Assembly (NCBI GenBank): GCA_023481165.1 | Contig: JAMCWO010000191.1 | Location: forward strand, 1,434 to 65,433 | Origin: Planctomycetota bacterium | GTDB lineage: Bacteria; Planctomycetota; Phycisphaerae; Sedimentisphaerales; Anaerobacaceae | DNA length: 64,000 bases | Reading direction: 5' to 3' | Position numbers and translations under genes: made by a program | The notes under the pieces: generated by a model | The model's input: the letters and a program-made list of their open reading frames with translations, nothing else | Databases searched by the model: none | What the model was told of the DNA's origin: nothing | In this document: piece by piece, positions 14,947 to 34,676 of the stretch | Layout of the letters: each line of letters begins with the position of its first letter | How positions within the stretch are numbered: the stretch's first letter is position 1

Positions 14947-15016
14947 CGGACTCCGCGTACGATGGAGAGTCAGAAAGGGCCGGCGACTCCGTTCTCCGCC
15001 AGCCCTTTTCCGTGCT

Positions 15017-15093
15017 TGTAGGGGCAGGCCCCCGTGCCTGCCCTCTTGGCTTTGTGCCCGTCCCGGGAGGGCGACCACAGGGGGTCGCCCTAC
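15017..15093. repeat. double-hairpin palindromic element (TGTAGGGG...CCCTAC family), copy at the kinase ORF 3' end
   Basis: TGTAGGGGCAGGCCCCCGTGCCTGCCC ... GGGCGACCACAGGGGGTCGCCCTAC. The left arm differs by 1 nt from the copy at 19336. The kinase ORF stop codon (15090-15092) lies inside the right arm. Confidence 0.7.
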
Positions 15094-16928
15094 GGTTTGG
15101 GTACGGCAGCGCTTTGGATGCAGAAGAACCGCACCTCGCTCAGACCAGCGGACGGCGTACTGCCCCAGCCTTTGTCGATGGTCAGCTTAACGTATTTGGC
15201 CGAGACCCCCCCGAAGCTGACGATCGTGTTCGCTGTATAACCGGGCTTGCCGGTCGCTTTGGCGAATTCCGGCACGTTAGCCACGGCTGTCCACGTCGTG
15301 CCATCGGTGGAGTACTCGATCTTGACGGTCTGGGCGCCAAAGCCGATGAAGGACTCTATCGGCTGATTGGAGTTCCACACCCATAGCTCATGCAGGGTGT
15401 AGACCTTGTCGAACTGGTACTGAATCCAGTGCGGCGCGGTGGTGCTGAGCCACATGTCGGTTCCATTCGTCGAATGTCCATCGCTCTTGTCGAGCCCGGA
15501 GCCATCGATCGTCCTCTCCGGCCCCATGTTAACCTGGGACGGGGAAGCTGTGGCCGTGATGCTCTTGATCGGATACGTCAAGGCGGCAGTCGTGAACTTC
15601 AGGATCGGCCCCTTGATAGGAGTAGCGCCCGAGATCACGAAATCCACCCGCCAGTAGTAGGTCTGGCTGACTTTCAGCGGCTCTGCGGGGTCGTAGGTAC
15701 TCGCTGTCTGCCCCTGGCTCACCAACACGCCCTGTGGATTCGTTCGACTGGCCGTGCTGACCACTTCGAGAGAGGTGCCGAAGTAGAGATCGCAGGCTTG
15801 GGCGAACGAAGGTGAGATCCAACTCAGGATGACATCGCAAGGCACATCTGAGGCTTTGGGTCCGGGAGTCACCAGCGATTCCATGAGAACCCCAAGGTCT
15901 TTCTCGTCCACGATACCATCGCCCCAGGCAAAGGGACCGATGTCACACAAGGACGTGTTCTTCCCCCAATTGTCCGCCAGAAGGCTCATGTCTTTCGCAT
16001 CGACCTTGCCGTCGCCGTTGAAGTCCATGACGGGAATGATCGGTGCCTGCCAGAGGTCCCATCCGCCGACGCCGCCGGGACACGGGCCTTCGAAATCATC
16101 GAAATAGCACCACCGCCCGTCAGGCGAAATGCTCGAAATGCAATTGGAGTAGTTGGTGTTGAGAGTTGGCCCAAGGTTCCTTGGTGGACCCCAGACGCTG
16201 GTCTTAGAGGGGCGAGTCGTTATCCACGTGTCCCATGCTCCAAAGCCACCAGGGCGATTCGACGCGATAAGGAGCGTTAGGGCATCAGGCGATATCCACT
16301 GGCACATATCATGAAGGGAACTGTTGACCGTTGCGCCGAGATTCACTGGCGTTCCCCAGGCATCTGAGGTGGTTGCCCGCTTGCTCACCCAGATGTCCCA
16401 GCCACCATATCCGCCGGGACGAATCGATATGAAATAGAACTCTAAGCCGTCCGGCGAAACGATTGGCTGAGCGTCCTTCCCCTGTATGATGATGTTTGGA
16501 GCCAGACTTGCCGCCGGTCCCCAGGGAGCATCTCTGGTGGCACGTGTGGTCGAGCACAAATCGTTGCCCCTTTGGAAATACAAGGTCAGTCCATCTGCCG
16601 ATATGCTCCCGGTTGCGTCCCAACCTGGTGAATTCACCTGCGCTCCCAAATTGGCGGGTGGACCCCATGCGTCTGGTACGCTGGCTCGCTTGGTCACCCA
16701 GATATCGAACCCGCCATATCCTTCGGGGCGATTGGAAGTGAAGTACAACTCCAGACCATCAGGGGAGAGAATGGCATTATAATCACGGGACGCACTGTTA
16801 ACGGTTGGCCCCAGATTCGCAGGCGTGCCGAAGACGAAATCCGCGTGCGCGGGAGGCGCATCAAGACCCGCGAGGAAACAAAGACTCAGTAGTGATAGTC
16901 CGGCCGTGGGAATCTCGAACAGTTTCAT
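15090..16928 (-). CDS. alternative model: independent secreted PD40-repeat / dockerin-like / discoidin protein starting at an internal ATG
   Basis: The internal ATG at 16926-16928 is preceded by GGAAGGTGTGAG. It encodes MKLFEIPTAGLSLLSLCFLAGLDAPPAHA-DF, a complete signal peptide, at codon 1153 of the long ORF. Confidence 0.4.
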   Translation of the reverse strand: MKLFEIPTAGLSLLSLCFLAGLDAPPAHADFVFGTPANLGPTVNSASRDYNAILSPDGLELYFTSNRPEGYGGFDIWVTKRASVPDAWGPPANLGAQVNSPGWDATGSISADGLTLYFQRGNDLCSTTRATRDAPWGPAASLAPNIIIQGKDAQPIVSPDGLEFYFISIRPGGYGGWDIWVSKRATTSDAWGTPVNLGATVNSSLHDMCQWISPDALTLLIASNRPGGFGAWDTWITTRPSKTSVWGPPRNLGPTLNTNYSNCISSISPDGRWCYFDDFEGPCPGGVGGWDLWQAPIIPVMDFNGDGKVDAKDMSLLADNWGKNTSLCDIGPFAWGDGIVDEKDLGVLMESLVTPGPKASDVPCDVILSWISPSFAQACDLYFGTSLEVVSTASRTNPQGVLVSQGQTASTYDPAEPLKVSQTYYWRVDFVISGATPIKGPILKFTTAALTYPIKSITATASPSQVNMGPERTIDGSGLDKSDGHSTNGTDMWLSTTAPHWIQYQFDKVYTLHELWVWNSNQPIESFIGFGAQTVKIEYSTDGTTWTAVANVPEFAKATGKPGYTANTIVSFGGVSAKYVKLTIDKGWGSTPSAGLSEVRFFCIQSAAVPKP

Positions 16929-19900
16929 CTCACACCTTCCCTTCTGCCCGAAGGCAACAGACATTGTTGGAATCGTATTGACAGGTCTTTCTGCAGAGAA
17001 GACGAGTTCACAGTCGAAAGGCAGGTCGATGACGTGCCGCTGGCCGGCCGCTGCGTCGAACCACGAGTCGAACGCCGACCGGCCACTCGTGACGGCGGAC
17101 CACCGCTTCATATCAGCCTCGGCTCTGGCTCGTTCGTGCAGAGCGTCGTAGCACCGCGCCCGCACTAAGTAGGCGTGGGCGTCCCACGGGTCGGTCGCAA
17201 TGCGCTGGGTGTGCCGGGCCACCAGTTCTCGGAGGTGCTCGCCCACCGTTTGGGCGGGCCCCAGCGCCTCGACCGTTGTGACGGCGGGAGCAAGGTCCGC
17301 CGTCCAAATCTCGAAATACGGTGCACCCAGTTCAAAAACGAGTTTCGCCCCCTCCGTGGCCCACGAGCCTACCGTGATCGGACCACCCAGCGTCTGGGCA
17401 GGCTGATTCTGGCCCAGGCGATATACCCACAGTCCCGTCGGGTTTTCCAGACCGCCGCTGCCGCCCAGGCACAGTTCGTTACTGCCCGGAGACCAGGCCA
17501 ATGCGCCCCAGCCATCGGAGGGCGAAGGCAGAGGCCATCTGGCGATCAACGTCTGGGAGGCCAGGTCTATGACCTTCAGGGCTGTGCCCTCTAGGCAGGC
17601 CATGCGTTGATTGTCGGGCGACACCGACGGGTTCCATTGCGGACACGGAATGACCCGTTTCAGCTCGGGGTCTTCCCCTGCGATGGAGACGCAATAGAGC
17701 GTGCTGTCTGAACGCGATTTGTAGTAGACGCTGTTCGAATCCCGACCCCAGGAGGGCCAGACCCCGACAGCCAGACGCCGTGGCGCGGTCCCATCGTCAT
17801 TCATGAGCCAAACCTCTTCATCCGTGCTGCCGATGGGTTCGTTCTTCGCGTCCGCGGTAACGAATTCCGGGACGGGCAGGAACTGTCGATCCCGCACAAA
17901 AGCAATATGCCGCCCATCCGGCGACCACCGGGGGTACTTGCCGGGGACGATCAGCAGATCCGTTTTTCCCGTGCTAGGATCGAAGACGGCAATACCGCTA
18001 CGGCCCTGCACTCCCAGACTAAAGGCCAGCCTCTTGCCATCCGGCGACCACGCGGCACTAAAGCCGTCCGTAGTCAGCCGCCGGCCTTTGGCGGAGAGCA
18101 GGCGATGGGTCTCCTCCGCCTCCACCATCGGCAGAAAGGCCGCCCCTGCCGGCGCGGGACCTGCCGGATGCCAGGACTGTCCGGCCGTCAACGTGTCAAA
18201 GACATACTTGGCGCACCAGTTCCGGAACTTCTGTCGTGCCTCCTGGCCGGGGCTGATGAGCCGACGAAACAAGGCGGCAGCTTCGTCGTAGTCGCCCACC
18301 GCTGTCAGCGCGCCGAACAGGTGATTGTGTAGGACCGACACATCTTCCGCCCCCGGCTGGACCTCCGCGATGATGCGACCGTAATCCTTCATCCGCAGGA
18401 GCGTGTCGCAGCGTTGAACGGACAGTTCCACGTGTTGGGGGCTGTCCTCTGCCGTCAGTTCAATCGCTTTGTCATACTCGCCAATCGCCTCCTGGCAGCG
18501 GTCCAGCTCTCGGAGAGCGGTCGCACGCAGGGAGTGCGCGAGCGGATCAGAATCGCGCAACATCTCCATGGCACGTGCATCCTCGTTCATGCGGTCATAC
18601 TTCCGCGATGCGTACCAGGTATAAGCCCGCAGTCGGAGAGACTCGTAGTGCTTCGAGTTGAGCCGCAGGGCTTCCTCCAGTGCCTCCAGTTGCTCGTGCA
18701 CCGTGATGGCCATCATCGCCCGTAAGTAGAATGCCTCCGCCGTCTTCGGAAGCAGGGCCTCCGCCTTCTGACGGTACTCTTCGATCTGCTTGAACTTATC
18801 GGGGTTGAGTGGACCGCTCTCCCCAAGAATGCGGCCCCAGAGCAAATGGGCTGCCCCCGCAATGTCCGCGCGCTCGTTCACCAGGTCCTTCAGTACGCTC
18901 AGTGCCTCTGCGAAACGGCGGTCGTCCGCGAGAATCCTGGCGTAAAGAAGCTGGGCCTCGGGTCCCGCGTACCTATTCCGAAGGAGCGATTTGATCGTCT
19001 CCAAAGCCGCCTCTCGATCTCCATTGTCATATTGCCCACGAGCTTGGGACAGCGCGGCCTCCGCTAATTTCAAACGGTCTTGATTCCACGCCCAAAGGAT
19101 GATGCTTCCGGCGCCAACCACAACCACCATCATCAGGGCAGCGATGGCCTGCGCGCGGTGTCGCCGGAGGAACTTGGCCAGACGATAGGCTGGGCCGGGG
19201 CCGCGGGCCAGAACCGGCTCGTGCTCCAAATGCCGCCGCACGTCTTCGGCCAAACCGCTGACGGTCTCGTAGCGCCGGACACGGTCCTTCTCCAGGGACT
19301 TCATCACGATCCAGTCCAGATCGCCGCGGACCTCTTGTAGGGGCAGGCCCCCGTGTCTGCCCAACTTCGGGCGGCCACGGGGGGCCGCCCCTACAGGTCG
19401 CCGTTCCCGCGTGGCGGTTCGGATCCGGGTCGAGGGCTTGACCGGCTCCTGCTCTCGGATCACCCGCTGCATCTCGATGTAGCCAGCTTGGCGGAGTTCC
19501 TCTTCACTGAAGGGGGTCGTCCCGGTCAGCAGTTCATAGAGCAACACGCCCAGCGAGTAGATGTCCGAGCGGGTGTCGATGTCCAGATCGCTCAGTTCCG
19601 CCTGCTCCGGACTCATGTAGGCCGGGGTGCCGATGATATGAGCGTAACGAGTGAAGAGCGTCTTTTCGGTCAGCTTCTGGTTCGTGGCCTTAGCTATCCC
19701 GAAGTCGATCACCTTGGGGACGGGCTTACCATCATGGTGCGTAACCATCACATTGGAAGGTTTGAGATCGCGATGGATGATGCCCTTCTGATGGGCGTGC
19801 TGCACGGCGTTGCAGACCTGTAGGAATAATACCAGCCGGTCTTTCGTGCTCAGGCTGTTCTTGTCGCAGTACTCGGTGATCGAAACGCCCTGGACCAGCT

Positions 19901-20384
19901 CCATGACAAAGTAGGGCCGGCCGGTATCGGTCGCTCCGGCGTCGAGGACCTTGGCGATACAGGGATGGTCCATCAGGGCAAGAGCCTGCCGCTCCGCCTC
20001 GAACCGGGCGATGACCTGGCGGGTATCCATGCCCAGCTTGATGATCTTGAGAGCCACCTTGCGGCGGAGGGGCTCGGTCTGCTCGGCCAGGTAGACGACC
20101 GCCATGCCGCCTTCCCCGATCTTCTCCAGGAGTTTGTAGCGGCCGATGATTGTGCCGGGGCCTTCCGTAAGGACGGGCATATCCAGCACCAGGGCCGAGT
20201 CCCACGGGGCAGATTCCAGGAAGTTGTCCCTGACCTCGTGGGCCTTGAGCAGAACCCGGATGCGGGCCAACAGACCGGCATCCTGGCCGCAGGCCGCTTG
20301 GAGGTAGGCCTCCCGCTGAGCCGGGGCCTGGCCCAGAGCTTCGTAGTAGATCGCCTCTTCGTTGGTCTTGTGCTCCGTGGACAC
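15090..20384 (-). CDS. giant Ser/Thr protein kinase ORF: kinase, TM helix, TPR, TolB-like PD40 propeller, then signal-peptide-like segment, PD40 repeats, dockerin-like pair and F5/8 type C domain
   Basis: GTG start after AAAGGAG. Kinase motifs are GEGGMAVVYLA, VALK, HRDLKPSN, DFG and GTPAYMSPE. The TM helix is AIAALMMVVVVGAGSIILWAW. PD40-type repeats include WSPDGKRLAF and WSPDGRHIAF. The dockerin-like pair is DFNGDGKVDAKD and GDGIVDEKD. The discoidin-like C-terminus includes WIQYQFDKVYTLHELWVWN and AKYVKLTI. Confidence 0.85.
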   Translation of the reverse strand: MSTEHKTNEEAIYYEALGQAPAQREAYLQAACGQDAGLLARIRVLLKAHEVRDNFLESAPWDSALVLDMPVLTEGPGTIIGRYKLLEKIGEGGMAVVYLAEQTEPLRRKVALKIIKLGMDTRQVIARFEAERQALALMDHPCIAKVLDAGATDTGRPYFVMELVQGVSITEYCDKNSLSTKDRLVLFLQVCNAVQHAHQKGIIHRDLKPSNVMVTHHDGKPVPKVIDFGIAKATNQKLTEKTLFTRYAHIIGTPAYMSPEQAELSDLDIDTRSDIYSLGVLLYELLTGTTPFSEEELRQAGYIEMQRVIREQEPVKPSTRIRTATRERRPVGAAPRGRPKLGRHGGLPLQEVRGDLDWIVMKSLEKDRVRRYETVSGLAEDVRRHLEHEPVLARGPGPAYRLAKFLRRHRAQAIAALMMVVVVGAGSIILWAWNQDRLKLAEAALSQARGQYDNGDREAALETIKSLLRNRYAGPEAQLLYARILADDRRFAEALSVLKDLVNERADIAGAAHLLWGRILGESGPLNPDKFKQIEEYRQKAEALLPKTAEAFYLRAMMAITVHEQLEALEEALRLNSKHYESLRLRAYTWYASRKYDRMNEDARAMEMLRDSDPLAHSLRATALRELDRCQEAIGEYDKAIELTAEDSPQHVELSVQRCDTLLRMKDYGRIIAEVQPGAEDVSVLHNHLFGALTAVGDYDEAAALFRRLISPGQEARQKFRNWCAKYVFDTLTAGQSWHPAGPAPAGAAFLPMVEAEETHRLLSAKGRRLTTDGFSAAWSPDGKRLAFSLGVQGRSGIAVFDPSTGKTDLLIVPGKYPRWSPDGRHIAFVRDRQFLPVPEFVTADAKNEPIGSTDEEVWLMNDDGTAPRRLAVGVWPSWGRDSNSVYYKSRSDSTLYCVSIAGEDPELKRVIPCPQWNPSVSPDNQRMACLEGTALKVIDLASQTLIARWPLPSPSDGWGALAWSPGSNELCLGGSGGLENPTGLWVYRLGQNQPAQTLGGPITVGSWATEGAKLVFELGAPYFEIWTADLAPAVTTVEALGPAQTVGEHLRELVARHTQRIATDPWDAHAYLVRARCYDALHERARAEADMKRWSAVTSGRSAFDSWFDAAAGQRHVIDLPFDCELVFSAERPVNTIPTMSVAFGQKGRCEMKLFEIPTAGLSLLSLCFLAGLDAPPAHADFVFGTPANLGPTVNSASRDYNAILSPDGLELYFTSNRPEGYGGFDIWVTKRASVPDAWGPPANLGAQVNSPGWDATGSISADGLTLYFQRGNDLCSTTRATRDAPWGPAASLAPNIIIQGKDAQPIVSPDGLEFYFISIRPGGYGGWDIWVSKRATTSDAWGTPVNLGATVNSSLHDMCQWISPDALTLLIASNRPGGFGAWDTWITTRPSKTSVWGPPRNLGPTLNTNYSNCISSISPDGRWCYFDDFEGPCPGGVGGWDLWQAPIIPVMDFNGDGKVDAKDMSLLADNWGKNTSLCDIGPFAWGDGIVDEKDLGVLMESLVTPGPKASDVPCDVILSWISPSFAQACDLYFGTSLEVVSTASRTNPQGVLVSQGQTASTYDPAEPLKVSQTYYWRVDFVISGATPIKGPILKFTTAALTYPIKSITATASPSQVNMGPERTIDGSGLDKSDGHSTNGTDMWLSTTAPHWIQYQFDKVYTLHELWVWNSNQPIESFIGFGAQTVKIEYSTDGTTWTAVANVPEFAKATGKPGYTANTIVSFGGVSAKYVKLTIDKGWGSTPSAGLSEVRFFCIQSAAVPKP
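19336..19395. repeat. 60-nt double-hairpin palindromic element inserted in frame in the kinase ORF
   Basis: TGTAGGGGCAGGCCCCCGTGTCTGCCCAACTTCGGGCGGCCACGGGGGGCCGCCCCTACA. The termini TGTAGGGG/CCCCTACA are inverted repeats. It is translated as about 20 aa (PVGAAPRGRPKLGRHGGLPLQ) just before the conserved RGDLDWIVMKSLEKD segment. Confidence 0.75.
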
Positions 20385-20463
20385 CGCTGCTCCTTTCGCT
20401 CTTCAATGCGTAAAGCCGGGGCCGATCCCCTCACGGAAATGCGAAAAAATCAACCACAGAGGC

Positions 20464-20611
20464 ACAGAGAGCACCGAGAAAACCGAAGGCAGGAGGGTAG
20501 AGAGCCATGAAGTCAGCAGGAAGAAGACGCGACGCACGGCGGCTTTCTGAAGTTTTCATCTTCCCACGGTCTTCCCCTCCGTGTCCTCTGTGCCTCTGTG
20601 GTGAAGAACCT
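20464..20611. mobile_element. MITE-like element with 16-nt terminal inverted repeats
   Basis: CCACAGAGGCACAGAG (20464-20479) and CTCTGTGCCTCTGTGG (20596-20611) are perfect inverted repeats 116 nt apart. The element lies in the gap between the sigma and kinase genes. Confidence 0.5.
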
Positions 20612-20664
20612 CGGCCGCTTGTAGTGGCGTCATCAGACGCTATCTATATGCTCTTACGAGCACA

Positions 20665-21231
20665 CTACAAACCGTCGATCTGCCCCAGTTCCACGCGTAG
20701 CCAGGCGCGGGCGTAGTCCCAACCCCGCTCGGCCGTCGCGTGCGAGATGCCCAAGGCTTGCGCCGCCTGCTCGATGGTCAGGCCCGCGAAATAGCGGAGC
20801 TTCACCAGATCGGCCTTGAGCGGGTCCTGCCGGGCAAGCTTGGCCAGTGCCTCGTCCAACGCCAGTATCTCCTGGGCTTGGGAAGCGTCGTCCGCCGCCG
20901 GAAATTCCTCGAGGTCCACCGGCCGGCGGCCAGCACCGCGCTTCAGGCTCTTCTTGCGGCGGGCATTGTCGATCAGGATACGCCGCATAGCCTCGGCGGC
21001 GGCCTTGAAGAAATGACCCTTGCTGTCCCAGCCATGTCCCTCATGGCCCACCAGGCGGAGGTATGCCTCATGCACCAGGGCGGTCGCTTGGAGGGTCTGG
21101 CCGGGAGGCTCAAGGGAGAGCTTTTGGGCGGCGAGAAGGCGGAGTTCCTCATAGACCAGGGGCAAGAGTTCGTCCGTAGCTTTCGCGTCCCCCCGTTCGA
21201 TGGCATTCAAGATGCGTGTGACATCACTCAT
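20665..21231 (-). CDS. ECF sigma factor of the Ser/Thr-kinase-associated type (TIGR02999-like)
   Basis: [38 protein letters not shown] ... [10 protein letters not shown] is the distinctive N-terminus of this ECF subgroup. The region 4 HTH is [21 protein letters not shown]. The gene lies directly upstream of the kinase. Confidence 0.85.
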
Positions 21232-21250
21232 GCCAACTCCCGACCGTTTG

Positions 21251-21272
21251 GGGGCGAATAATTATTCGCCCC
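21251..21272. repeat. perfect 22-bp palindrome
   Basis: GGGGCGAATAATTATTCGCCCC followed by TACA, the same CGCCCCTACA terminus as the 19336 element. It lies 20 nt upstream of the sigma start codon. Confidence 0.7.
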
Positions 21273-21413
21273 TACATGGGCCTATTCTGTCACAAGAGTC
21301 GGCAGACTTCAAGTCTTCGCATGTACCGGGAACGGGATAGTTGACTTGGCCGTATAGTATTTATAGAATAGGGATGGCTGTAGAGAGGTATTCTGCTCTT
21401 GAGGAGAAGGTCT

Positions 21414-22397
21414 ATGGACTCCGGGAAAGACAGCCAGGTATGGCAATACAAATGGCACATCGCCATCATTGTCGTCGTGGTGGCGGGGGCACTGGCCTTG
21501 TCGATCTTCACGAAGGTCCTGGAGACGTCGGACAGTGTGCGGCAACTCCTGATGCTCATGGGCGGGCTGATTTTTCTGATCGCCCTGCTGACGGTGCTTT
21601 CGCGCGTCTCCCGGATCGTCAGCACGCTCAATGAAAACAGCGCCCGGCTGGAGGAAGCCAGCAAGGCGATGGAGAGCATCCGGGATGGGCTGCTCCAGAT
21701 CAACCACACCTCGCGCATCAGCGAGGCGGCCAAGGCCATCGCCTTTCGCGAGGACGACAAGCGCTCCCTGCGCGAGGCCGTCTTCGAGCGGCTCAAGCAA
21801 AACGATTTCAACGGGGCGTACGAGATTGTCGACGAGATCGAGAACCACTCCTCGTACCGGCTGCTGGCGGAGGAGCTGCGCCGGCAGGTGGACAACTACC
21901 GCAATGCCACGCAGGAAGAGAGGATCGATCAGGCCATCGCCCAGGTGGAGAAGCTGTTCGACGCGTGCCAGTGGGTCAAGGCCAGTCTGCAGATCGAGTC
22001 ACTGATTCGGGCCAATCCGACTTCGGACAAGCTCAAGACCCTGCGTCAGAAGCTGGTCGAGCGCAAAGAGGAGCGCAAGCGCATCCTGCTGGCCGCCTGG
22101 GACGACGCCGTGACGCGGCAGGAAACGGACCGCAGCCTGGAGATCCTCCGCGAGCTGGACATGTACCTGACGCCCAACGAGGCCCTGGCGCTGCAGGAGG
22201 CGGCCAAGGACGTCTTCCGGACGAAACTCCACAACCTGGGCGTGCAGTTTGCCTTGGCCGTCTCGGACAAGCACTGGTCCAACGCCCTGGAGATCGGCCA
22301 GCAGATCGTGCGGGACTTCCCGAACAGCCGCATGTCCGTGGAGATTCGTGAAAAGCTCCACGTGCTCCGGCAGAACGTGGAATTGCAGACCAACTGA
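21414..22397 (+). CDS. membrane-anchored coiled-coil hypothetical protein
   Basis: The ATG at 21414 follows GAGGAGAAGG. Two N-terminal TM helices are followed by a long helical, charged region. No family was recognised. Confidence 0.55.
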   Translation: MDSGKDSQVWQYKWHIAIIVVVVAGALALSIFTKVLETSDSVRQLLMLMGGLIFLIALLTVLSRVSRIVSTLNENSARLEEASKAMESIRDGLLQINHTSRISEAAKAIAFREDDKRSLREAVFERLKQNDFNGAYEIVDEIENHSSYRLLAEELRRQVDNYRNATQEERIDQAIAQVEKLFDACQWVKASLQIESLIRANPTSDKLKTLRQKLVERKEERKRILLAAWDDAVTRQETDRSLEILRELDMYLTPNEALALQEAAKDVFRTKLHNLGVQFALAVSDKHWSNALEIGQQIVRDFPNSRMSVEIREKLHVLRQNVELQTN

Positions 22398-25369: not shown

Positions 25370-27670
25370 ATGTGTGCACGAGTGATTTGCCTGATAGCCT
25401 TCGCGTGCGGATTTGTCTCTTGTGGCTGGGCCCAGGATTACCTGGCGGTAGCTACTTATGGCGAGCGGCTGCCGGGATCGACCGAACAGGTCGGTTTGTG
25501 GTGGGCCTCATCCGGGTGGAAGGTCGGGCAGGACCGGGCGCTGCCGCAGACGAAAGGGGACGCGATTCTCATTCGGGCGGCGCAAAATGAGGCCGAAGCG
25601 GCCCAATTGGTGGTGCGGCCGGCAGCGGCCCTGAAGGGACTTGTCCTGGAGGCGGGGGTCTTGACCGGACCAGCCGGTGCGACAATACCCGGGCAGAACA
25701 TCGGTGTTCTGGAAGTGCGGTACGTCCACGTCACGCGGGCGACGGATAAGAGCACTACGCCGGGATATTGGCCCGATCCCCTGCCGCCGTTGAAGAAGGC
25801 TATTGATCTGGCGGCGGGCAAGAATCAACCCTTCTGGGTTCGGGTGAAGGTGCCGCGCGGGACACAGGCCGGCGTATACCAGGGGACGATCAGACTGAGG
25901 GCAGAAGGTTTCAAGGCGGCGGTGCCGCTGAAGGTCGAGGTCTATGACTTCGAGTTGCCGGACCGCATGACGTGCACGACGGCGTTCGGCTTCAGTCCGG
26001 ACAACGTCTGGCGCTACCAGGGGATCTCCGATCCACGCCGCCGGCATGAGGTCCTGGAGAAGTACTGGGCCAACTACAGCGCCCATCATATCTCGCCGTA
26101 CGATCCCGCGCCGCTCGAGCGAATCGAGGTGACGTGGCCCGACATCAAGCCGCCCAAGCCCAAATGGCAAGGCGGCCGGCCGGTGACCAATGAAGTGCAT
26201 GGCGGCGCGCGCAGCCTCCTGCTGTTCGACGACCGCAAGGATGCGAATGTGGAGGCGGTGTACGAGCCGCTCGTGCCGATCCCGGAGGGCGACCTGCGTC
26301 TGCGGTTCTGGTACCGCACCGCCGTGCCGGGCCAGACCTTTCTGGTCACGCTGAACCACTATGATGGTTCGGGCCGGTGGATCTCCGGCGCCAACAACGA
26401 CATCGGTCTCGAAGGCAGCGGGCACTGGCAGGAATTCGACCGCGTGCTCCGGAAGTTCCCCGCCGGGGCCAAGTCTGTGCAGCTTCACCTGCGGGCGGCG
26501 AACTGGAGCGAAAGCGGCGAGGCTACCGGATTGGTTTGGTTCGATGATATTTCACTGACGAACGCCGCGACCGGGCAGGAGTTGATTGAAGGCGGCACGT
26601 TCGAGCCGCCCGAGCTGCCGCCGGTCGAGCGGGACAAGCTCCAGGTGAAGCTCGATTTCACCGCCTGGGACAAGGCGATGGAACAAGGCATCGACTACTA
26701 TCATTTCAACTCCTTCCGCCTGGGAATTCTGGGCATGGGCGGCGGGACCTTCCATGCCCGCCAAGACCCGCAGTTGCTCGGCTTCGGAGAGGACACACCC
26801 TGCTACAAAGTGCTCTTCAACAGCTACTGCTCGCAACTGCAGGAGCACCTGCGGCAGAAGGGCTGGCTCGATGAGGCTTTCGTCTACTGGTTCGACGAGC
26901 CGGACCCGAAGGATTATCCCTTCGTCAGCAACGGCTTCGCCAAGCTCAAGGCGGCGGCGCCCGACATCCACCGCATGTTGACGGAGCAGGTCGAGCCGGG
27001 ACTGATCGGCGGCCCGAACATCTGGTGCCCCGTCTCCAATCAGTACCAGCCCGGGGCCGCCGAGGAGCGGCGCCAACAGGGCGAGAAGTTCTGGTGGTAC
27101 GTCTGCACGGGACCCAAGGCCCCCTACTGCACGCTGTTCATCGACCATCCGGGGACCGAGCTGCGCGTCTGGCTCTGGCAGACCTGGCAACGGAAGATCG
27201 CCGGCATCCTGGTCTGGGAGACGAACTACTGGACCAGCGGGGCGGCGTATCCCGACCGCGACCACCCGCAGAATCCCTACGAAGATCCGATGGGCTGGAC
27301 ATCGGGCTACAGCACGCCCGAGGGCCAGAAGCGGCCCTGGGGCAACGGCGATGGCCGGTTCGTCTATCCGCCGGTCGAGGCGGCCGATGGACGTCCAACT
27401 CAGCCGATTGTCGAAGGACCGGTGGACAGCATCCGCTGGGAGATGCTCCGGGATGGGATCGAAGATTACGAGTACTTCGTAATCCTGAAGAACCTGATTT
27501 CCGCCAAAGGCGACCGGCTCAGCGCCATCCATAAGGCCGAGTACACCGCCCTGCTCGACGTACCGGCGGAGGTCACGAAGGATATGACGACCTTCACCAA
27601 GGACCCGGCGGCGATCGAGCAGCATCGTGACCGCGTGGCCCGCGCGATCAGTGCGCTCCGCCAGCAGTAG
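25370..27670 (+). CDS. DUF4091 domain protein (putative glycoside-hydrolase-like), secreted/lipoprotein
   Basis: N-terminal signal with Cys. The C-terminal WWYVCTGP ... IRWEMLRDGIEDYEYF block is typical of DUF4091 proteins (assigned from memory). Confidence 0.7.
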   Translation: MCARVICLIAFACGFVSCGWAQDYLAVATYGERLPGSTEQVGLWWASSGWKVGQDRALPQTKGDAILIRAAQNEAEAAQLVVRPAAALKGLVLEAGVLTGPAGATIPGQNIGVLEVRYVHVTRATDKSTTPGYWPDPLPPLKKAIDLAAGKNQPFWVRVKVPRGTQAGVYQGTIRLRAEGFKAAVPLKVEVYDFELPDRMTCTTAFGFSPDNVWRYQGISDPRRRHEVLEKYWANYSAHHISPYDPAPLERIEVTWPDIKPPKPKWQGGRPVTNEVHGGARSLLLFDDRKDANVEAVYEPLVPIPEGDLRLRFWYRTAVPGQTFLVTLNHYDGSGRWISGANNDIGLEGSGHWQEFDRVLRKFPAGAKSVQLHLRAANWSESGEATGLVWFDDISLTNAATGQELIEGGTFEPPELPPVERDKLQVKLDFTAWDKAMEQGIDYYHFNSFRLGILGMGGGTFHARQDPQLLGFGEDTPCYKVLFNSYCSQLQEHLRQKGWLDEAFVYWFDEPDPKDYPFVSNGFAKLKAAAPDIHRMLTEQVEPGLIGGPNIWCPVSNQYQPGAAEERRQQGEKFWWYVCTGPKAPYCTLFIDHPGTELRVWLWQTWQRKIAGILVWETNYWTSGAAYPDRDHPQNPYEDPMGWTSGYSTPEGQKRPWGNGDGRFVYPPVEAADGRPTQPIVEGPVDSIRWEMLRDGIEDYEYFVILKNLISAKGDRLSAIHKAEYTALLDVPAEVTKDMTTFTKDPAAIEQHRDRVARAISALRQQ

Positions 27671-27726
27671 CATGGGCGTCCCGCCCATGCTACGAGTGAA
27701 CACCTGACGGCGTCACTACGAACACG

Positions 27727-32034: not shown

Positions 32035-34095
32035 TCATCTGCCAGGCGCCGCTTGCCGGCGAGCGCCGTGGTACATCGCCACCGTATACTCGAAGACCCG
32101 CTTGCTCTGCGGCTCAATCGTCAGTTTGAACCGAGCGTGGGTCGCGTCATACTTCTCGTAAGACACTTCCTTATCCGTCGACTTGAGCGTCCAATAGGGC
32201 GTCTCGAAGCCGCGGGTCACTTCTATGTCCACCGGCAGCGGACGAGTATTGGCGATTTCGATTTTCCAGGTCCGCACCTCGTCCCAGCCGGAGACATTGC
32301 CGTTGTTGTCGAACGTATGATTCTCCACCTGGTAGTCGATCAGGATGGGCTTGACTTCGACCAGCCGTGCCGGCCCGAGGTTCAGCTCGACCTCCTCGTT
32401 GACGGGAATGTACTTCACATTCATCGCCCCGACGTACAACAGATGGCCTTGCTCACCGGCTCGACCGTAGATGCGGACGGCGCCGTCCGGAATCGGCGTC
32501 TGGCCAAGCTTGTGCTTTTCGTCATTCGCGAAGGACAGGAACCGGATCGTCGCCGTGGCCCAGCGCTCTTCGTCGTATTTGTACAAGCTCGCCACCGGGA
32601 CGTCGTCAGCCTCGAAGGAAAGAAGCCTTTTGCCCCACTTATCGGGGATCGTCTCCGTCCCTTCAATCGTGTACAGGAAGTACTCACTGAGTCCCTCTTT
32701 GTGGATCACCCTAGGGGCCGCCTCGTAGACTCCGGCCCTTACACCATTCCTGATCGGCGAGCTACTATCCTTATCACGATCCACTCCCTCGAAACCCGTC
32801 GCGATGCTCTTGCCGATTGGCGACGGACTGTCGTAAGGATACTGACGCCTGGCCAGATCGGAGATCTGATCGAGGAGATGCACGCGACCAACTATAAGGC
32901 GGGTCTGCGCATCTTCGTAGTCCTCGCCGCTGCTGTTGCTGACTCGCACGTAGCCTGCCAAGTGCATGGTCCTCTCATCCGGCGAGAGCGTGCCCATGTA
33001 GAAGGCCCGCCAGGCCAAGCCACTGGTGAAGTAAGTCAATTCGAAAGGCACTTGGCCGTCGACCTCCGAACGAATGAGCCAACGGCCAAGTTCCCGTAGC
33101 CTCGGCGGAAAGACCAATTGCTGGACTTGCACGCCGTCTTCGTGTTCCAATGGCTCCAAAGCCAGCGAGGTCGGATCGATCAGCGTATTGGCCCACATGA
33201 ACTGGAGCCAGTTCCAGCCCCGCTTCAAGGTCAAGTTGCGCCGTTCGCGGACCAGCGTCAGATCGGCCCCGTTGTAGATCGTCAGTTGGACGTTCTCCCG
33301 GCGCGGCAGCACAACCAACTCGATGGCGCTGGCCGGAGCAAAGGGCGGCTGCTCGGCAACCTGTGCCGTCCGGGTGGCGTCCGGCACGTTTGTAGTGACG
33401 CCGTCGGGCGTTTGCGGATATGCCCTTACGGGCACACTACGAACCGGGCCTTCGGCCTTGATACTGGCGCCCGGCGCGGACGTGGGTTCCGGTGGGGCAA
33501 GCCGGGACCCCCAACGCGATTCATCGCGTTGGGGAGCCCGATCCACCCTACCGGCTGCCCCGGGTGTCGTGCCAGGCTGGGCGTCGGCCAGCGACGTCCT
33601 GAGCGACGAAGGTTTCGATGGCACCGTGGCCTCGGCTTGCCCTGCCTCCTGTGCCACGAGCGGCGCGGGCTGGTCTTTCCTGAAGGCGAACTCCTGATCC
33701 GCAGAGGCAGCAGGAGCGGCGTTCTGGGCCGATGGGCCAGGCGCTATTGTCGGCGCGATTCGATTGTCCTGGGGAAAATTGGAGACCAGCAACAGAGCTA
33801 CACCCACTATGACCGCCGCCGCAACTGCCCCCGCCGCAGGCAACCGGTACAGCCAGATTACCCTGGCGGGACGGGCTTGGGCGGCGTTCTCGACGGTCTT
33901 GGATAGAAGGTCTTTAGAGACTTCGATCTCCCCACGCAGCAAATCCAGCGTAGCGAACTTCCGCGCCAGCGTTTGCAGCTTCCGCCGACATTCCTCACAT
34001 TCATCCAGGTGGGCCTGGGCCGCGTTCCTAGCGGCCGCGTCGGCCAGCTTGAACTGGGAGTCGATCAACTGTTGTTCTGTCAGATGCTGGTTCAT
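32035..34095 (-). CDS. anti-sigma factor (zf-HC2) joined through a TM helix and a Pro/Ala linker to a DUF4139-like extracytoplasmic domain (paralogue 1)
   Basis: AHLDECEECRRKL (H-x3-C-x2-C) at aa 29-36. The TM helix is at aa 80-104 and a low-complexity linker runs to about aa 255. The following 430 aa domain is collinear with paralogues 2-4. The start overlaps the sigma stop (ATGA). Confidence 0.8.
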   Translation of the reverse strand: MNQHLTEQQLIDSQFKLADAAARNAAQAHLDECEECRRKLQTLARKFATLDLLRGEIEVSKDLLSKTVENAAQARPARVIWLYRLPAAGAVAAAVIVGVALLLVSNFPQDNRIAPTIAPGPSAQNAAPAASADQEFAFRKDQPAPLVAQEAGQAEATVPSKPSSLRTSLADAQPGTTPGAAGRVDRAPQRDESRWGSRLAPPEPTSAPGASIKAEGPVRSVPVRAYPQTPDGVTTNVPDATRTAQVAEQPPFAPASAIELVVLPRRENVQLTIYNGADLTLVRERRNLTLKRGWNWLQFMWANTLIDPTSLALEPLEHEDGVQVQQLVFPPRLRELGRWLIRSEVDGQVPFELTYFTSGLAWRAFYMGTLSPDERTMHLAGYVRVSNSSGEDYEDAQTRLIVGRVHLLDQISDLARRQYPYDSPSPIGKSIATGFEGVDRDKDSSSPIRNGVRAGVYEAAPRVIHKEGLSEYFLYTIEGTETIPDKWGKRLLSFEADDVPVASLYKYDEERWATATIRFLSFANDEKHKLGQTPIPDGAVRIYGRAGEQGHLLYVGAMNVKYIPVNEEVELNLGPARLVEVKPILIDYQVENHTFDNNGNVSGWDEVRTWKIEIANTRPLPVDIEVTRGFETPYWTLKSTDKEVSYEKYDATHARFKLTIEPQSKRVFEYTVAMYHGARRQAAPGR
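33509..33534. repeat. CCCCAACGC...GCGTTGGGG hairpin element (copy 1), inside the anti-sigma linker coding region
   Basis: CCCCAACGCGATtcATCGCGTTGGGG with GGGA/AGCCC flanks. It is translated as ..PQRDESRWGS.. Confidence 0.7.
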
Positions 34096-34676
34096 GGCGT
34101 CACGTCAACGGAATCCGGCAGTTTCCGGGCCAGTTTCGCCAAGGCCCGGGACATCTGGGTCTTCACAGAACCAACGGAGCAGCCCAGAGCCTCGGCGACT
34201 TCCGGGTAACTCAGTTGCTGGTAATAGGCGAGGACCAGAGCGGCCCGTTGCCCAAGCGGGAGTGATTCAATCGCCCGCCGGACCTGCTCCTTCTGCTCCT
34301 CTTTGACCGCCTCCTCCACCGGGTCCGGGGCATCTTGTGCGACGGCTGTCTCCAACAACGGAGGATCGTCCTCGCAGTCGGTGTCACGGTTCAGGGAGAG
34401 AAACGCAAGGCGTTTGCGCCGGCGGACGGTGTCGATAGTTACGCGCGTGGCGATGGTGAACAGCCAGCTTTTGAAGCTGCCGCCCCGGTAGCTGCGGGCC
34501 TTCTCGTGGACCCGTTGGAAGGTCTCCTGGAAAAGGTCTTCGGCCTGGTCTCGACTGCCCGTCATGCGGCACAAATACCCCAGCACGCCGTCCCCGTACC
34601 GGCGGACCAGCTCGCGAAACGCCGCCGGATCACCCCGCAGGTGAGCGGCGACTAAGCTCTCATCCAGACCTTCCAT
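34092..34676 (-). CDS. ECF (RpoE-like) sigma-70 family sigma factor
   Basis: Region 2 is AEDLFQETFQRVHEKARSYRGGSFKSWLFTIATRVTIDTVRRRKR. The region 4 HTH is LSYPEVAEALGCSVGSVKTQMSRAL. Confidence 0.9.
   Translation of the reverse strand: MEGLDESLVAAHLRGDPAAFRELVRRYGDGVLGYLCRMTGSRDQAEDLFQETFQRVHEKARSYRGGSFKSWLFTIATRVTIDTVRRRKRLAFLSLNRDTDCEDDPPLLETAVAQDAPDPVEEAVKEEQKEQVRRAIESLPLGQRAALVLAYYQQLSYPEVAEALGCSVGSVKTQMSRALAKLARKLPDSVDVTP

What the first reader, a model, noticed from the sequence alone, without database searches (positions are those of the whole stretch)
19336..19395. Palindromic 60-nt element inserted in frame into the Ser/Thr kinase, with a second copy supplying the ORF stop codon
TGTAGGGGCAGGCCCCCGTGTCTGCCCAACTTCGGGCGGCCACGGGGGGCCGCCCCTACA consists of two GC-rich hairpins bounded by inverted termini TGTAGGGG/CCCCTACA. 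It is exactly 60 nt (20 codons) and sits in the variable juxta-kinase segment just before the conserved RGDLDWIVMKSLEKD. A second copy at 15017-15093 has a left arm differing by 1 nt. It lies in the gap between the convergent genes, and the TAG stop of the kinase ORF (15090-15092) falls inside its right arm. Both copies give the same GRHGGLPLQ peptide when translated. A related terminus (CGCCCCTACA) closes the 22-bp palindrome at 21251-21272. In-frame colonisation of coding sequence by palindromic repeats is well documented for Rickettsia palindromic elements. It would be notable in this lineage.
Basis: partly seen in the sequence, partly recalled or inferred. Interest (0 to 1): 0.65.

Follow-up and report, generated by a model that had tools for sequence, protein, structure and literature searches.

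The report
In-frame REP hairpin pair in kinase
The 60-base palindrome is a pair of GTAG-tagged REP hairpins (a REPIN-type mini mobile element) sitting in frame in a surface loop of a planctomycete-type Ser/Thr kinase, which is a known phenomenon, although here the same loop carries REP-derived sequence in about a third of related kinases.

Summary
Window 19336-19395 is a 60-nt near-perfect palindrome inside the 1764-aa kinase ORF (15090-20384, minus strand). It is made of two inverted GTAG-tagged hairpin units of the form GTAGGGGC-N3-CCCCCGTG-N3-GCCC. That makes it a head-to-head REP heterodimer, i.e. a REPIN.

More units lie at 15018-15043, 15069-15093 (its TAG is the kinase stop codon), 21251-21275 and 27667-27693.

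- **Family:** Its stems covary, and RAYT (Y1) transposase genes lie next to it.
- **Not a simple +20-aa insertion:** most homologues carry a conserved loop (KLSTLG..TDIAK.R..TPDLLRKAV). In 42 of 120 it is replaced by RIRTA plus variable REP-derived hairpins plus (E/Q)V.
- **Shared copy:** five other homologues carry this same dimer at the same site. The window's copy is inverted relative to all five.
- **Conservation:** the hairpin units are far more conserved than the spacer, the neighbouring codons or synonymous sites.
- **Stop codon:** the protein's C-terminus (…KP*) is ancestral, so the 3' REP overlaps the stop codon without changing the protein.

In-frame GTAG REP dimers, and GTAG tags that supply TAG stops, were already described in 2013, including in PVC bacteria. 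This is a new member of a known kind, with some extra interest.

The parts
19336..19395 (-). 60-nt REP head-to-head heterodimer (REPIN-type palindrome). It lies in frame in the kinase mRNA and encodes V331-Q350 (VGAAPRGRPKLGRHGGLPLQ).
   Evidence: Sequence; folds; translation. The same element sits at the same site in five homologues.
19337..19362 (+). REP unit A: GTAGGGGCAGGCCCCCGTGTCTGCCC. GTAG tag, 8-bp stem with one G/T mismatch, loop CCCCGT.
   Evidence: The stem variant CAGG/CCTG is the commonest one in the genome-contig scan (41 of 138 units).
19363..19368 (.). 6-nt spacer (AACTTC) between the two units. This is the fast-evolving part of the element.
   Evidence: Spacer plus junction: 4 of 7 positions vary among six homologous copies, against 3 of 51 in the units.
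19369..19394 (-). REP unit B: GTAGGGGCGGCCCCCCGTGGCCGCCC. Same tag and loop as unit A, with a compensatory stem variant CGGC/GCCG.
   Evidence: It is 0 of 25 variable among six homologous copies.
19396..19428 (-). Left part of the cassette, codons R320-P330 (RIRTATRERRP). The RIR signature is diagnostic of REP-bearing homologues.
   Evidence: R320, I321 and R322 occur in 98%, 98% and 79% of REP-bearing homologues. K, L and S occur there in 94%, 92% and 86% of canonical ones. DNA.
15090..20384 (-). Host gene: 1764-aa Ser/Thr kinase (kinase, TM, TPR, PD40 beta-propeller, F5/8 type C). Catalytic motifs are intact.
   Evidence: Pfam. Full-length homologues at 57-68% identity from Planctomycetota/Phycisphaerae MAGs.
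15018..15043 (+). Extragenic REP unit GTAGGGGCAGGCCCCCGTGCCTGCCC. It is the left half of the dimer between the convergent genes.
15069..15093 (-). REP unit GTAGGGCGACCCCCTGTGGTCGCCC. The TAG of its tag (15090-15092) is the kinase stop codon.
   Evidence: The C-terminus ...KP* is conserved in homologues.
21251..21275 (-). Single REP unit GTAGGGGCGAATAATTATTCGCCCC, 20 nt upstream of the ECF sigma start codon, in the 5' leader of the sigma-kinase operon.
   Evidence: Near-identical units (GTAGGGGCGAATGATCATTCGCCCCTAC) sit in frame in the activation loop of homologue P0016 (L002).
27667..27693 (.). 'Double-foot' REP, a perfect palindrome GTAGCATGGGCG-TCC-CGCCCATGCTAC. The TAG of its left foot (27668-27670) is the stop codon of the GH123 gene 25370..27670 (+).
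   Evidence: The ...TPMLREV cassette ending of other kinase homologues can be back-translated to the right foot of this unit type; this is a protein-level inference.
20665..21231 (-). ECF sigma factor gene (PF07638) directly upstream of the kinase. This pairing is conserved in the relatives examined.
   Evidence: Pfam 5.4e-61. Same pairing in L001, L002, L202-L205.

Best explanation
The 60-nt element is a REPIN-type dimer: two GTAG-tagged REP hairpins in head-to-head orientation, with the GTAG feet outside and a 6-nt spacer between them. The family is GTAGGGGC-N3-CCCCCGTG-N3-GCCC. This kind of non-autonomous element is thought to be mobilised in trans, as single-stranded hairpin DNA, by a REP-associated tyrosine (Y1/HUH) transposase. 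Here the best match is TnpA_REP subclass 2.4, also called RAYT group 4.

**Shown**
- The element is embedded in frame in the loop between 'PSTR' and 'DLDWIVMK' of the kinase domain. In PknB that loop is only about 5 residues long.
- It belongs to a REP-derived cassette, RIRTA + hairpin units + (E/Q)V. In about a third of homologous kinases this cassette replaces the canonical segment of about 27 aa.
- The same dimer, with the same partner units, the same 60-nt length and the same flanks, is present in five other homologues. The window's copy is therefore shared with relatives rather than private to this genome.
- The window's copy is inverted in place relative to all five.
- The hairpin units stay nearly invariant while the spacer, the adjacent linker codons and synonymous sites have diverged.

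**Inferred**
- An ancestral kinase paralogue acquired REP units in this loop.
- The insertion survived because the net length kept the reading frame, because two of the three phases of the palindrome are stop-free in either orientation, and because the loop tolerates Gly/Pro/Arg-rich sequence.
- The cassette then spread and was homogenised among the many tandem sigma-kinase paralogues by recombination or gene conversion, and its REP content turned over.
- The inversion arose by recombination or template switching between the arms, or by excision and re-insertion.

The dimer at 15018-15093 is an ordinary extragenic REP pair between convergent genes. Its GTAG foot overlaps the ancestral stop codon.
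For: **Anatomy**
- GTAG feet, 8-bp G+C-rich stems with three G-C pairs at the foot, and a 6-nt loop.
- 3 exact unit matches in the window against 0.00 expected.

**Family**
- 138 units with 31 stem variants in 119 stretches from many phyla. The tag and loop are fixed by the search pattern. The stems covary: CAGG/CCTG 41 times, CGGC/GCCG 21 times, CAAC/GTTG 16 times.
- 30 head-to-head dimers among all held sequences, with spacers of 1-40 nt.

**Transposase link**
- Y1_Tnp (PF01797) ORFs with NH[FV]H, WQRNY.EHIIRN and YI..N motifs lie next to or around units in L096 and L103.
- tblastn homologues of these occur in L041, L024 and L089.
- This matches TnpA_REP subclass 2.4, whose REPs have three G-C pairs at the foot or a 'double foot' and are often inserted in frame (PMC6006769).

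**In-frame replacement**
- The canonical loop of 41-42 aa (counted from P.KPS to DLDWIV) is present in most of the 80 metagenome loci and in 78 of 120 proteins.
- 42 of 120 proteins have the RIRTA + hairpin cassette.

**Homologous copies and inversion**
- W, L001, L002, L202, L204 and L205 were aligned. Five have A-to-B orientation on the coding strand and the window has B-to-A.

**Conservation**
- Units: 3 of 51 positions variable. Spacer plus junction: 4 of 7 (Fisher p = 0.0025). Adjacent linkers: 15 of 48 and 9 of 29.
- Window versus L001: element 59/60 identical, against 64.5% identity at four-fold third positions (p = 3e-8).

**Loop tolerance**
- Alignment to PknB (1MRU) and to 9eed_A.

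**Paralogue exchange**
- Four tandem sigma-kinase pairs in one relative show mosaic identity, with cassettes 94-97% identical against 83-89% for the kinase domain.

**Stop codon**
- The C-terminus is conserved.

**Literature**
- PMC3733652.
Against: - No RAYT gene lies in the 64-kb window (regex and tblastn), and the rest of the genome is not available. A cognate transposase and a high genomic copy number are therefore unproven for this organism.
- In 45 kb of one relative (L202/L203), every perfect GT[AG]G hairpin lies inside a kinase hot spot and none is intergenic. In these genomes the units may be inherited with the kinases rather than being actively spreading extragenic repeats.
- REP-bearing homologues are not monophyletic. 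NJ trees of any module need 24-32 state changes, against about 35 for shuffled labels. A single ancestral event therefore requires much recombination.
- Transposition of REPINs by RAYTs has not been demonstrated experimentally in any system (established knowledge; PMC6006769 notes the absence of formal evidence of mobility).
- Why the units are so conserved is not explained by passive tolerance alone.
Confidence: 0.8

Rival explanations
1. Independent, recent, site-specific insertion. The window's dimer was inserted de novo into this kinase, at a hot-spot target, from the genome's own REPIN pool. Its opposite orientation reflects a separate insertion event, not an in-place inversion of an inherited copy.
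For: - The element is 59/60 identical to L001's, while the 45 nt just upstream are only about 80% identical and synonymous sites about 65%.
- The right boundary of every cassette is a CTAC foot 5-6 nt before GTC-CGN-GGC-GAT.
- The unit sequences are the same across phyla, so separate pools could yield near-identical inserts.
Against: - The spacer AACTTC with the CAGG+CGGC partner combination occurs only in the window and L001 among the 30 dimers found in all held sequences. Spacers elsewhere differ in both length and sequence.
- All six in-kinase copies have exactly the same length and flanks, and their spacers differ by graded substitutions, as expected for descent.
- The linker TATRE(R/G)R(P/S) upstream is also shared.
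Confidence: 0.12
2. A selected functional element. The hairpin units are kept by selection for a role at the DNA or RNA level. Candidate roles are a docking site for a RAYT or other REP-binding protein, an mRNA stability or decay determinant inside the sigma-kinase operon, or a translational pause site. On this reading the units are not a tolerated passenger.
For: - The units are near-invariant (3 of 51 variable positions) while the spacer (4 of 7) and the adjacent codons (15 of 48; 9 of 29) vary. A second embedded unit shows 0 of 19 variable positions.
- Cassettes are the most conserved DNA stretch among tandem paralogues.
- The mRNA hairpin is very stable, at -48.7 kcal/mol.
Against: - Different homologues carry quite different unit families, numbers and lengths at this site (segment 47-91 aa from P.KPS to DLDWIV, against 41-42 aa in the canonical form). 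Most homologues have none, so no particular hairpin is required for kinase function.
- Gene conversion among paralogues, or with other genomic REP copies, could produce the same conservation without any function.
- No expression or structure-probing data were available.
Confidence: 0.2
3. Assembly or binning artefact. The palindrome, or its orientation, was created by the assembler at a repeat.
For: - In the best-matching public run, Logan contigs stop at 19326-19333 and resume at 19486. The stretch is hard to assemble from short reads.
Against: - The same element sits at the same codon position in five independent assemblies from different sources (ENA, NCBI MAGs, JGI).
- The longest perfect inverted repeat is only 9 nt, too short to let a k-mer assembler flip the interior (sequence).
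- The ORF stays open in either orientation.
Confidence: 0.02
4. Programmed invertible segment. The 60-nt palindrome flips in vivo and switches the loop between two 20-aa variants (phase or antigenic-type variation).
For: - Both orientations exist in nature and both keep the frame open: VGAAPRGRPKLGRHGGLPLQ versus VGAGPRACPTSGGHGGPPLQ.
Against: - Only one of six lineages is flipped.
- The loop is cytoplasmic, in a kinase domain.
- No within-population polymorphism could be tested.
Confidence: 0.03

Closest known systems
GTAG-tagged REPs and their head-to-head (HH) dimers, including intragenic ones (Di Nocera, De Gregorio & Rocco 2013, PMC3733652)
   Same: - A GTAG foot directly followed by a 6-13-bp stem, with subfamilies that differ by compensatory stem changes.
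- HH heterodimers with short spacers.
- Location downstream of genes and between convergent genes.
- GTAG termini that supply TAG stop codons.
- Intragenic dimers that encode 20-30 aa, and clusters that encode 43-82 aa.
- Presence in PVC bacteria (Opitutus terrae, Rhodopirellula baltica).
   Different: - The host gene family (ECF-sigma-linked Ser/Thr kinases of Phycisphaerae-like Planctomycetota) is not among the reported cases.
- One loop is occupied in about a third of a large paralogous family.
- One copy has been inverted in place.
- The units are more conserved than the surrounding coding DNA.
- I could not assign the unit to one of that paper's 24 numbered families, because the consensus figure is not held.
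REPIN / RAYT systems (Bertels & Rainey 2011, PMC3116915; PMC3337134) and TnpA_REP subclass 2.4 with its cognate REPs (Quentin et al. 2018, PMC6006769)
   Same: - Two inverted REPs plus a spacer that fold into one long hairpin.
- Family-level association with a Y1/HUH transposase gene.
- Subclass 2.4 REPs have three G-C pairs at the stem foot or a 'double foot', occur in many phyla, and are inserted in frame within genes, notably within tnpA_REP itself. I also saw this in L096, L041, L024 and L089.
   Different: - No RAYT gene is in the window and the genomic copy number is unknown.
- In Pseudomonas, REPINs are overwhelmingly extragenic and number in the hundreds. In the relatives sampled here the units are sparse and concentrated inside kinase genes.
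Rickettsia palindromic elements (RPEs; Ogata et al. 2000, as cited in PMC3733652)
   Same: Palindromic repeats inserted in frame into genes that apparently remain functional, adding a peptide segment on the protein surface.
   Different: - According to PMC3733652, RPE-4 and RPE-6 fall in the CGTC-tagged superfamily. The present units are GTAG-tagged.
- RPE-1 is a longer insertion.
- RPEs belong to Rickettsia, and no RAYT link is known for them.
E. coli BIMEs (clusters of alternating REPs)
   Same: In homologues the cassette grows into arrays of alternating hairpins of several unit types (for example L122 and L128, whose segments are 74 and 91 aa from P.KPS to DLDWIV).
   Different: BIMEs are extragenic and bind IHF, gyrase or Pol I. 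Here the arrays are translated.

Membership tests
REP (GTAG superfamily) | Short (20-40 bp) imperfect palindrome that forms a stem-loop | tested here: met
   Units of 25-26 nt with 8-9-bp stems and 4-6-nt loops.
REP (GTAG superfamily) | Conserved unpaired GTAG (GT[AG]G) tetranucleotide at one end, 0-2 nt from the stem | tested here: met
   All five window units start with GTAG, and the stem begins within the GGG that follows.
REP (GTAG superfamily) | Subfamilies that differ by compensatory changes in the stem | tested here: met
   31 stem variants among 138 units, almost all complementary (CAGG/CCTG, CGGC/GCCG, CAAC/GTTG, CGGA/TCCG and others). The tag and loop were fixed by the search pattern, so their constancy was not tested.
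REP (GTAG superfamily) | Many copies per genome, mostly extragenic | tested here: inconclusive
   The 64-kb window holds 4 GTAGGG-tagged units and one double-foot unit; of these, 2 are intragenic, 2 overlap stop codons and 2 are intergenic. The whole genome is not available. In 45 kb of one relative, all units are intragenic.
REPIN | Two REPs in inverted orientation separated by a short spacer, able to fold into one long hairpin | tested here: met
   Units at 19337-19362 (+) and 19369-19394 (-) with a 6-nt spacer. The minimum-free-energy structure is a single hairpin over all 60 nt.
REPIN | A cognate RAYT (Y1/HUH transposase) gene in the same genome, typically flanked by the repeats | tested here: inconclusive
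   None in the window. At family level it is met: Y1_Tnp ORFs lie beside or around units in L096 and L103 (Pfam), with tblastn homologues in L041, L024 and L089. A Y1_Tnp gene lies about 10 kb from the kinase in relative L002.
REPIN | Evidence of replication within the genome (multiple near-identical full dimers) | not testable with these tools
   This needs the complete genome. Within the window, the second dimer (15018-15093) has a different partner unit and a different spacer.
Rickettsia palindromic elements (RPE) | Sequence membership in the RPE-1 to RPE-8 families; the short ones are CGTC-tagged | tested here: not met
   The units carry GTAG, not CGTC. [quoted passage not shown] The element works like an RPE (in-frame palindromic insert) but is not one.
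MITE (IS-derived) | Terminal inverted repeats of a DDE-type IS, flanked by a target-site duplication; usually 70-300 bp | tested here: not met
   The element is 60 nt. Its flanks CGACC|...|AGAGG show no direct duplication. The termini are REP feet, not IS ends.
Known structured RNA (Rfam) | Match to a curated covariance model | tested here: not met
   Nothing relevant in 14000-22000 at E <= 1.

The most novel reading that the evidence does not exclude
The loop between the last helices of the kinase domain in this ECF-sigma-linked kinase family may be a long-lived 'REP nest' inside a coding sequence. REP/REPIN units are swapped, multiplied and even inverted there in frame. The units themselves are actively maintained, either by selection for RAYT or other protein binding or for RNA structure, or by continual conversion from other copies, while everything around them drifts.

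That would make REPs a source of a hypervariable protein loop. It would also provide a natural system in which REP maintenance can be measured against a coding-sequence clock.
Probability: 0.35. Interest if true: 0.6.

Novelty: new member of a known kind. Interest (0 to 1): 0.38.

Why it matters
For annotation, it explains an odd Gly/Pro/Arg-rich stretch in an otherwise very conserved kinase. It also explains the many 'low-complexity' variable segments in homologues. These are translated REP hairpins, not sequencing errors and not functional motifs.

For REP/REPIN biology, the locus offers something rare. There are homologous copies of the same dimer in several lineages, embedded in a gene whose synonymous sites serve as a clock. 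Against that clock the hairpin units are almost frozen (3 of 51 variable sites), while the spacer and neighbouring codons change freely, and one copy has flipped in place.

That bears on an open question: are REPINs passively decaying parasites, or are they maintained sequences? It also suggests that hairpin cassettes may focus gene conversion among tandem paralogues. None of this changes the basic classification, which is already in the literature.

Tried and rejected
- **AlphaFold2 on the kinase domain.** A 7-row and then a 64-row alignment gave mean pLDDT 41.5 and 48.2. Both models are too poor to use. Loop placement therefore rests on sequence alignment to PknB (1MRU) and 9eed_A.
- **Population polymorphism (orientation, presence/absence).** Only Logan contigs exist for the best-matching run, a mine-tailings metagenome holding 55% of the words. 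They break at 19326-19333 and resume at 19486, so nothing could be concluded.
- **Generic 'GTAG + hairpin' census over 354 kb.** It found 30 units, but control tags gave 4-43. The generic detector is not specific, and only the explicit unit families are trustworthy.
- **Monophyly of REP-bearing homologues.** Rejected. Trees need 24-32 changes, against about 35 for shuffled labels, for every module.
- **Idea that the ORF is two fused genes.** This was prompted by an internal signal-peptide-like segment. It is rejected because the whole architecture, including that segment, is conserved in full-length homologues.
- **Idea that the 3' REP truncated the protein.** Rejected.
- **Rfam.** No family matched.
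- **Literal-sequence literature search.** Nothing relevant.
- **Source record.** The window's sigma protein is not on record in the assemblies index, so the source record and genome could not be retrieved.
- **Pseudogenes.** Six loci first flagged 'no segment' were canonical kinases with motif variants, not frameshifted pseudogenes.
Full report
**1. The observation**

The sequence at 19336-19395 is exactly as quoted. It lies inside a 1764-codon ORF on the minus strand, 15090..20384. That ORF encodes a Hanks-type Ser/Thr kinase followed by a TM segment, TPR repeats, PD40 beta-propeller repeats and an F5/8 type C domain.

- The 60 nt fold into one long hairpin: DNA -27 kcal/mol, z = -6.1; mRNA strand -48.7 kcal/mol, z = -6.6; none of 200 shuffles folds as well.
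- They run from the third base of codon 330 to the second base of codon 350. They encode VGAAPRGRPKLGRHGGLPLQ, immediately before EVRGDLDWIVMKSLEKD.
- The element is two inverted copies of one unit type, GTAGGGGC-N3-CCCCCGTG-N3-GCCC, which differ by a compensatory stem change (CAGG/TCTG versus CGGC/GCCG).
- The window has three exact matches to that pattern, against 0.00 expected.

Other units in the window:

- 15069-15093 (-), GTAGGGCGACCCCCTGTGGTCGCCC. The TAG of its foot is the kinase stop codon at 15090-15092.
- 21251-21275 (-), GTAGGGGCGAATAATTATTCGCCCC.
- 27667-27693, a perfect 'double-foot' palindrome GTAGCATGGGCG-TCC-CGCCCATGCTAC. Its TAG is the stop codon of a GH123 glycosidase gene.

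The 'second copy' at 15017-15093 shares only the left unit (1 nt different). It has another partner unit and a 25-nt spacer. It is a sibling dimer, not a copy.

**2. What the units are**

A GTAG foot followed directly by a G+C-rich stem-loop is the definition of the GTAG superfamily of REPs. Two such units with their feet outward form a head-to-head dimer, which is a REPIN (PMC3733652; PMC3337134).

The stretches come from Proteobacteria, Chloroflexota, Acidobacteriota, Planctomycetota, Cyanobacteria, Bacteroidota, Nitrospinota, Binatia, Omnitrophota, Deinococcota and others.
- The 138 units fall into 31 stem variants, nearly all complementary. Tag and loop were fixed by the search pattern.
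- 30 head-to-head dimers with spacers of 1-40 nt were found among all held sequences.
- Y1_Tnp (PF01797) ORFs with NH[FV]H, WQRNY.EHIIRN and YI..N motifs lie beside or around the units in L096 and L103. Homologues of these occur in L041, L024 and L089.
- In four of these loci the REP units sit in frame inside the transposase gene, after the HUH motif.

This is the published signature of TnpA_REP subclass 2.4 (RAYT group 4). That subclass is scattered over many phyla. Its REPs have three G-C pairs at the stem foot or a double foot, and are frequently inserted in frame in tnpA_REP (PMC6006769).

No RAYT gene lies in the window itself. Rfam has no match.

**3. Not a simple insertion but a REP-derived cassette at a hot spot**

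The full architecture of the protein is conserved in many homologues at 57-68% identity from Planctomycetota, Phycisphaerae and Sedimentisphaerales MAGs. The kinase domain itself is about 85-90% identical.

- In 78 of 120 homologues, and in most of 80 metagenome loci, the segment between PST and RGDLDW is a conserved 27-residue loop, KLSTLG(D/E)TLTD(I/V)AK.R..TPDLLRKAV.
- In 42 of 120 it is replaced by RIRTA, then highly variable Gly/Pro/Arg/Ala-rich sequence, then (E/Q)V. The whole segment from P.KPS to DLDWIV is then 47-91 aa rather than 41-42 aa.
- At the DNA level these variable stretches are arrays of G+C-rich hairpins of several GT[AG]G-footed types. Predicted RNA folding energy is -0.39 to -0.58 kcal/mol per nt, against about -0.30 for canonical loops.
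- The right boundary seen in the DNA is usually a CTAC-type foot (CTAC, or GTAC, TTAC, CTAT) 5-6 nt before GTC-CGN-GGC-GAT.
- The substitutions K320R, L321I and S322R are almost perfectly linked to REP presence: 98%, 98% and 79% against 94%, 92% and 86%.
- A canonical loop starting STRIRTLG exists in more distant kinases (L145). The cassette therefore probably arose in such a background and removed about 22 native residues.

Alignment to solved structures shows that PknB has only about 5 residues between PSAR and DLDAVVLKAL. The closest solved relative, 9eed_A, has a long loop. The segment is thus a family-specific surface loop, not part of the kinase core. Two AlphaFold2 attempts were too poor to add anything.

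The same protein family carries REP-like in-frame inserts at other sites:

- The activation loop, where NQK is replaced by VGANDHSPL from a unit like the one at 21251-21275.
- Positions after residues 528, 545, 677-684 and 745.

**4. The window's copy is homologous to copies in relatives, and is inverted**

Five other homologues carry this very dimer: L001, L002, kinase K3 of L202/L203, L204 and L205. They share the same two partner units, the same 60-nt length and the same flanks.

- Among the 30 dimers found in all held sequences, the spacer AACTTC with this partner combination is seen only in the window and L001. The other in-kinase copies differ from it by graded substitutions: AACGTC, AATGTC, AATGCC. 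This points to descent from one insertion rather than repeated insertions.
- In all five relatives the coding strand reads unit A then unit B. In the window it reads B then A.
- The window's coding strand is the exact reverse complement of L001's element except for 1 nt (59/60).
- Protein-level data for P0046 and P0050 agree with the A-to-B orientation.
- The inversion is therefore derived in the window's lineage. Because the element is 60 nt and palindromic, both orientations stay open in this frame. They give different peptides: VGAAPRGRPKLGRHGGLPLQ versus VGAGPRACPTSGGHGGPPLQ.
- Only one of the three phases contains the TAG of the foot.

**5. The units are conserved far beyond their surroundings**

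- Across the six copies, unit A has 3 of 26 variable positions, unit B 0 of 25, and the spacer plus junction 4 of 7 (Fisher p = 0.0025).
- The linker codons just upstream have 15 of 48 variable positions (window, L001, L202) and 9 of 29 (L002, L204, L205).
- A second embedded unit, GGCGAGCGTCCCGCTCGCC, has 0 of 19.
- Between the window and L001 the kinase domain is 87.2% identical in DNA and 64.5% at four-fold third positions. The element is 59/60 identical (p = 3e-8 against four-fold sites).
- In one relative genome (GCA_036744855.1), four sigma-kinase pairs lie in tandem. Three share another cassette (HVAQPPPAGG...TPYQQV) at 94-97% identity, while their kinase domains are 86-89% identical (66-71% at third positions). 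Identity along the genes is mosaic, which suggests gene conversion.

Passive tolerance does not explain this conservation. Either the units are under selection (protein binding or RNA/DNA structure), or they are continually homogenised. I could not separate these two.

**6. Phylogeny**

REP-bearing homologues are scattered on neighbour-joining trees of every module: 24-32 state changes against about 35 for shuffled labels. Together with the shared boundaries and the RIR signature, this fits a cassette moved among paralogues by recombination. Recurrent events are not excluded.

**7. The 3' dimer and the stop codon**

The kinase ends ...CIQSAAVPKP*. Homologues end the same way: P0045 is identical, and P0001 and P0010 end ...AIQSAAVKP. 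The REP foot therefore overlaps or supplies the TAG without changing the protein.

The same arrangement occurs at 27667-27670 for the GH123 gene. [quoted passage not shown] The dimer lies between convergent genes: a gene for a protein with an N-terminal methylation motif at 14026-14946 (+), and the kinase. That is the typical REP location.

**8. Comparison with what is known, and novelty**

PMC3733652 reports the following:

- Intragenic GTAG REPs, of which more than half are dimers or groups encoding 20-30 aa.
- Clusters encoding 43-82 aa.
- REPs at the same site in orthologous recB genes.
- The highest intragenic count in the PVC bacterium Opitutus terrae.
- Several REP families in Rhodopirellula baltica.

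PMC6006769 describes in-frame REP insertions for the RAYT subclass that matches these units.

The element works like a Rickettsia RPE but is not one, because those are CGTC-tagged. I therefore file it as a new member of a known kind.

The following seem not to have been described:

1. The host family and the scale: one loop occupied in about a third of a large paralogous kinase family.
2. The in-place inversion of a translated dimer.
3. The strong conservation of embedded units measured against a coding clock.

**9. Limits**

- The genome of the window's organism was not available. A window protein is not on record, and the best public run holds only 55% of the sampled words. Copy number, RAYT presence and population polymorphism are therefore untested for this organism.
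- Mobility of REPINs by RAYTs is itself inferred in the literature.

**Verdict**

- Observation confirmed.
- Interpretation supported, with refinements.
- Interest is modest: high for a REP specialist as a study system, low as a discovery of kind.

Noticed in passing
window 27667-27693: A perfect 27-nt 'double-foot' palindrome, GTAGCATGGGCG-TCC-CGCCCATGCTAC, lies between convergent genes. The TAG of its left foot (27668-27670) is the stop codon of the GH123 glycosidase gene 25370..27670 (+). The ...TPMLREV ending of the hot-spot cassettes in other kinase homologues can be back-translated to the right foot of this unit type (CGCCCATGCTAC).
   Followed up: partly
window 33489-33554 (inside ORF 32035..34095, minus strand): A 66-nt (22-codon) imperfect palindrome, 75% complementary, has a GTAGGG foot on the minus strand. 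It sits in frame in the low-complexity linker of an anti-sigma-like DUF4139 protein, encoded next to a sigma-70 r2/r4 ECF sigma gene (34092..34676). It may be a second, decayed in-frame REP dimer in this window.
   Followed up: partly
window about 16870-16960 (kinase residues about 1143-1171): A signal-peptide-like segment (MKLFEIPTAGLSLLSLCFLAGLDAPPAHA) lies in the middle of the kinase ORF, after the PD40 propeller. It is conserved in homologues (consensus GQKGRCEMK.FEIP...SLLGLCLLSGLD.PPA.ADF). It is either a second membrane pass or an internal start/processing site for the C-terminal PD40/dockerin-like/F5/8C part. It is unexplained.
   Followed up: no
L202 and L203 (GCA_036744855.1, contig DAIOHF010000008.1): Four ECF-sigma/kinase gene pairs lie in tandem. 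Pairwise DNA identity along the kinases is mosaic, with stretches of 100% next to stretches of 50-80%. This suggests frequent gene conversion among paralogues. The REP cassette region is always among the most conserved stretches.
   Followed up: partly
L096 2604-3398 (-); also L041 7350-8000, L024 5364-5792, L089 690-929: RAYT-type Y1 transposase genes carry REP units of this same family in frame, directly after the HUH motif (...PNHFHGIVII|VGAGPRACP...GQPQGVAPT...). This matches the published peculiarity of TnpA_REP subclass 2.4.
   Followed up: yes
L003-L121 (genome-contig scan): Exact matches to the 26-nt unit pattern turn up in MAGs and isolates labelled as many different phyla, including Prevotella, a Woesebacteria (CPR) MAG and cyanobacterial isolates. 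Only the middle 3 bp of the stem vary, and they do so in a compensatory way. Such breadth implies either very old conservation of a RAYT-REP recognition code or horizontal spread. Some MAG hits could be binning contamination.
   Followed up: partly
L002 2559-2586; L134 7813-7840; proteins P0011, P0081, P0092, P0052, P0100, P0115 and others: Further in-frame REP-like inserts occur at other loops of the same kinase family. In the activation loop, NQK is replaced by VGANDHSPL, VGANNH.. or VRATHASPL. Others occur in the TPR region after residues 528, 545, 677-684 and 745 (for example TVGATPCGCPIHR...GAATRG).
   Followed up: partly
window 21251-21275: The single REP unit upstream of the ECF sigma gene ends 20 nt before the ATG, immediately 5' of the GGGAG ribosome-binding site. 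It is therefore probably part of the 5' leader of the sigma-kinase operon and could affect its translation or stability.
   Followed up: no
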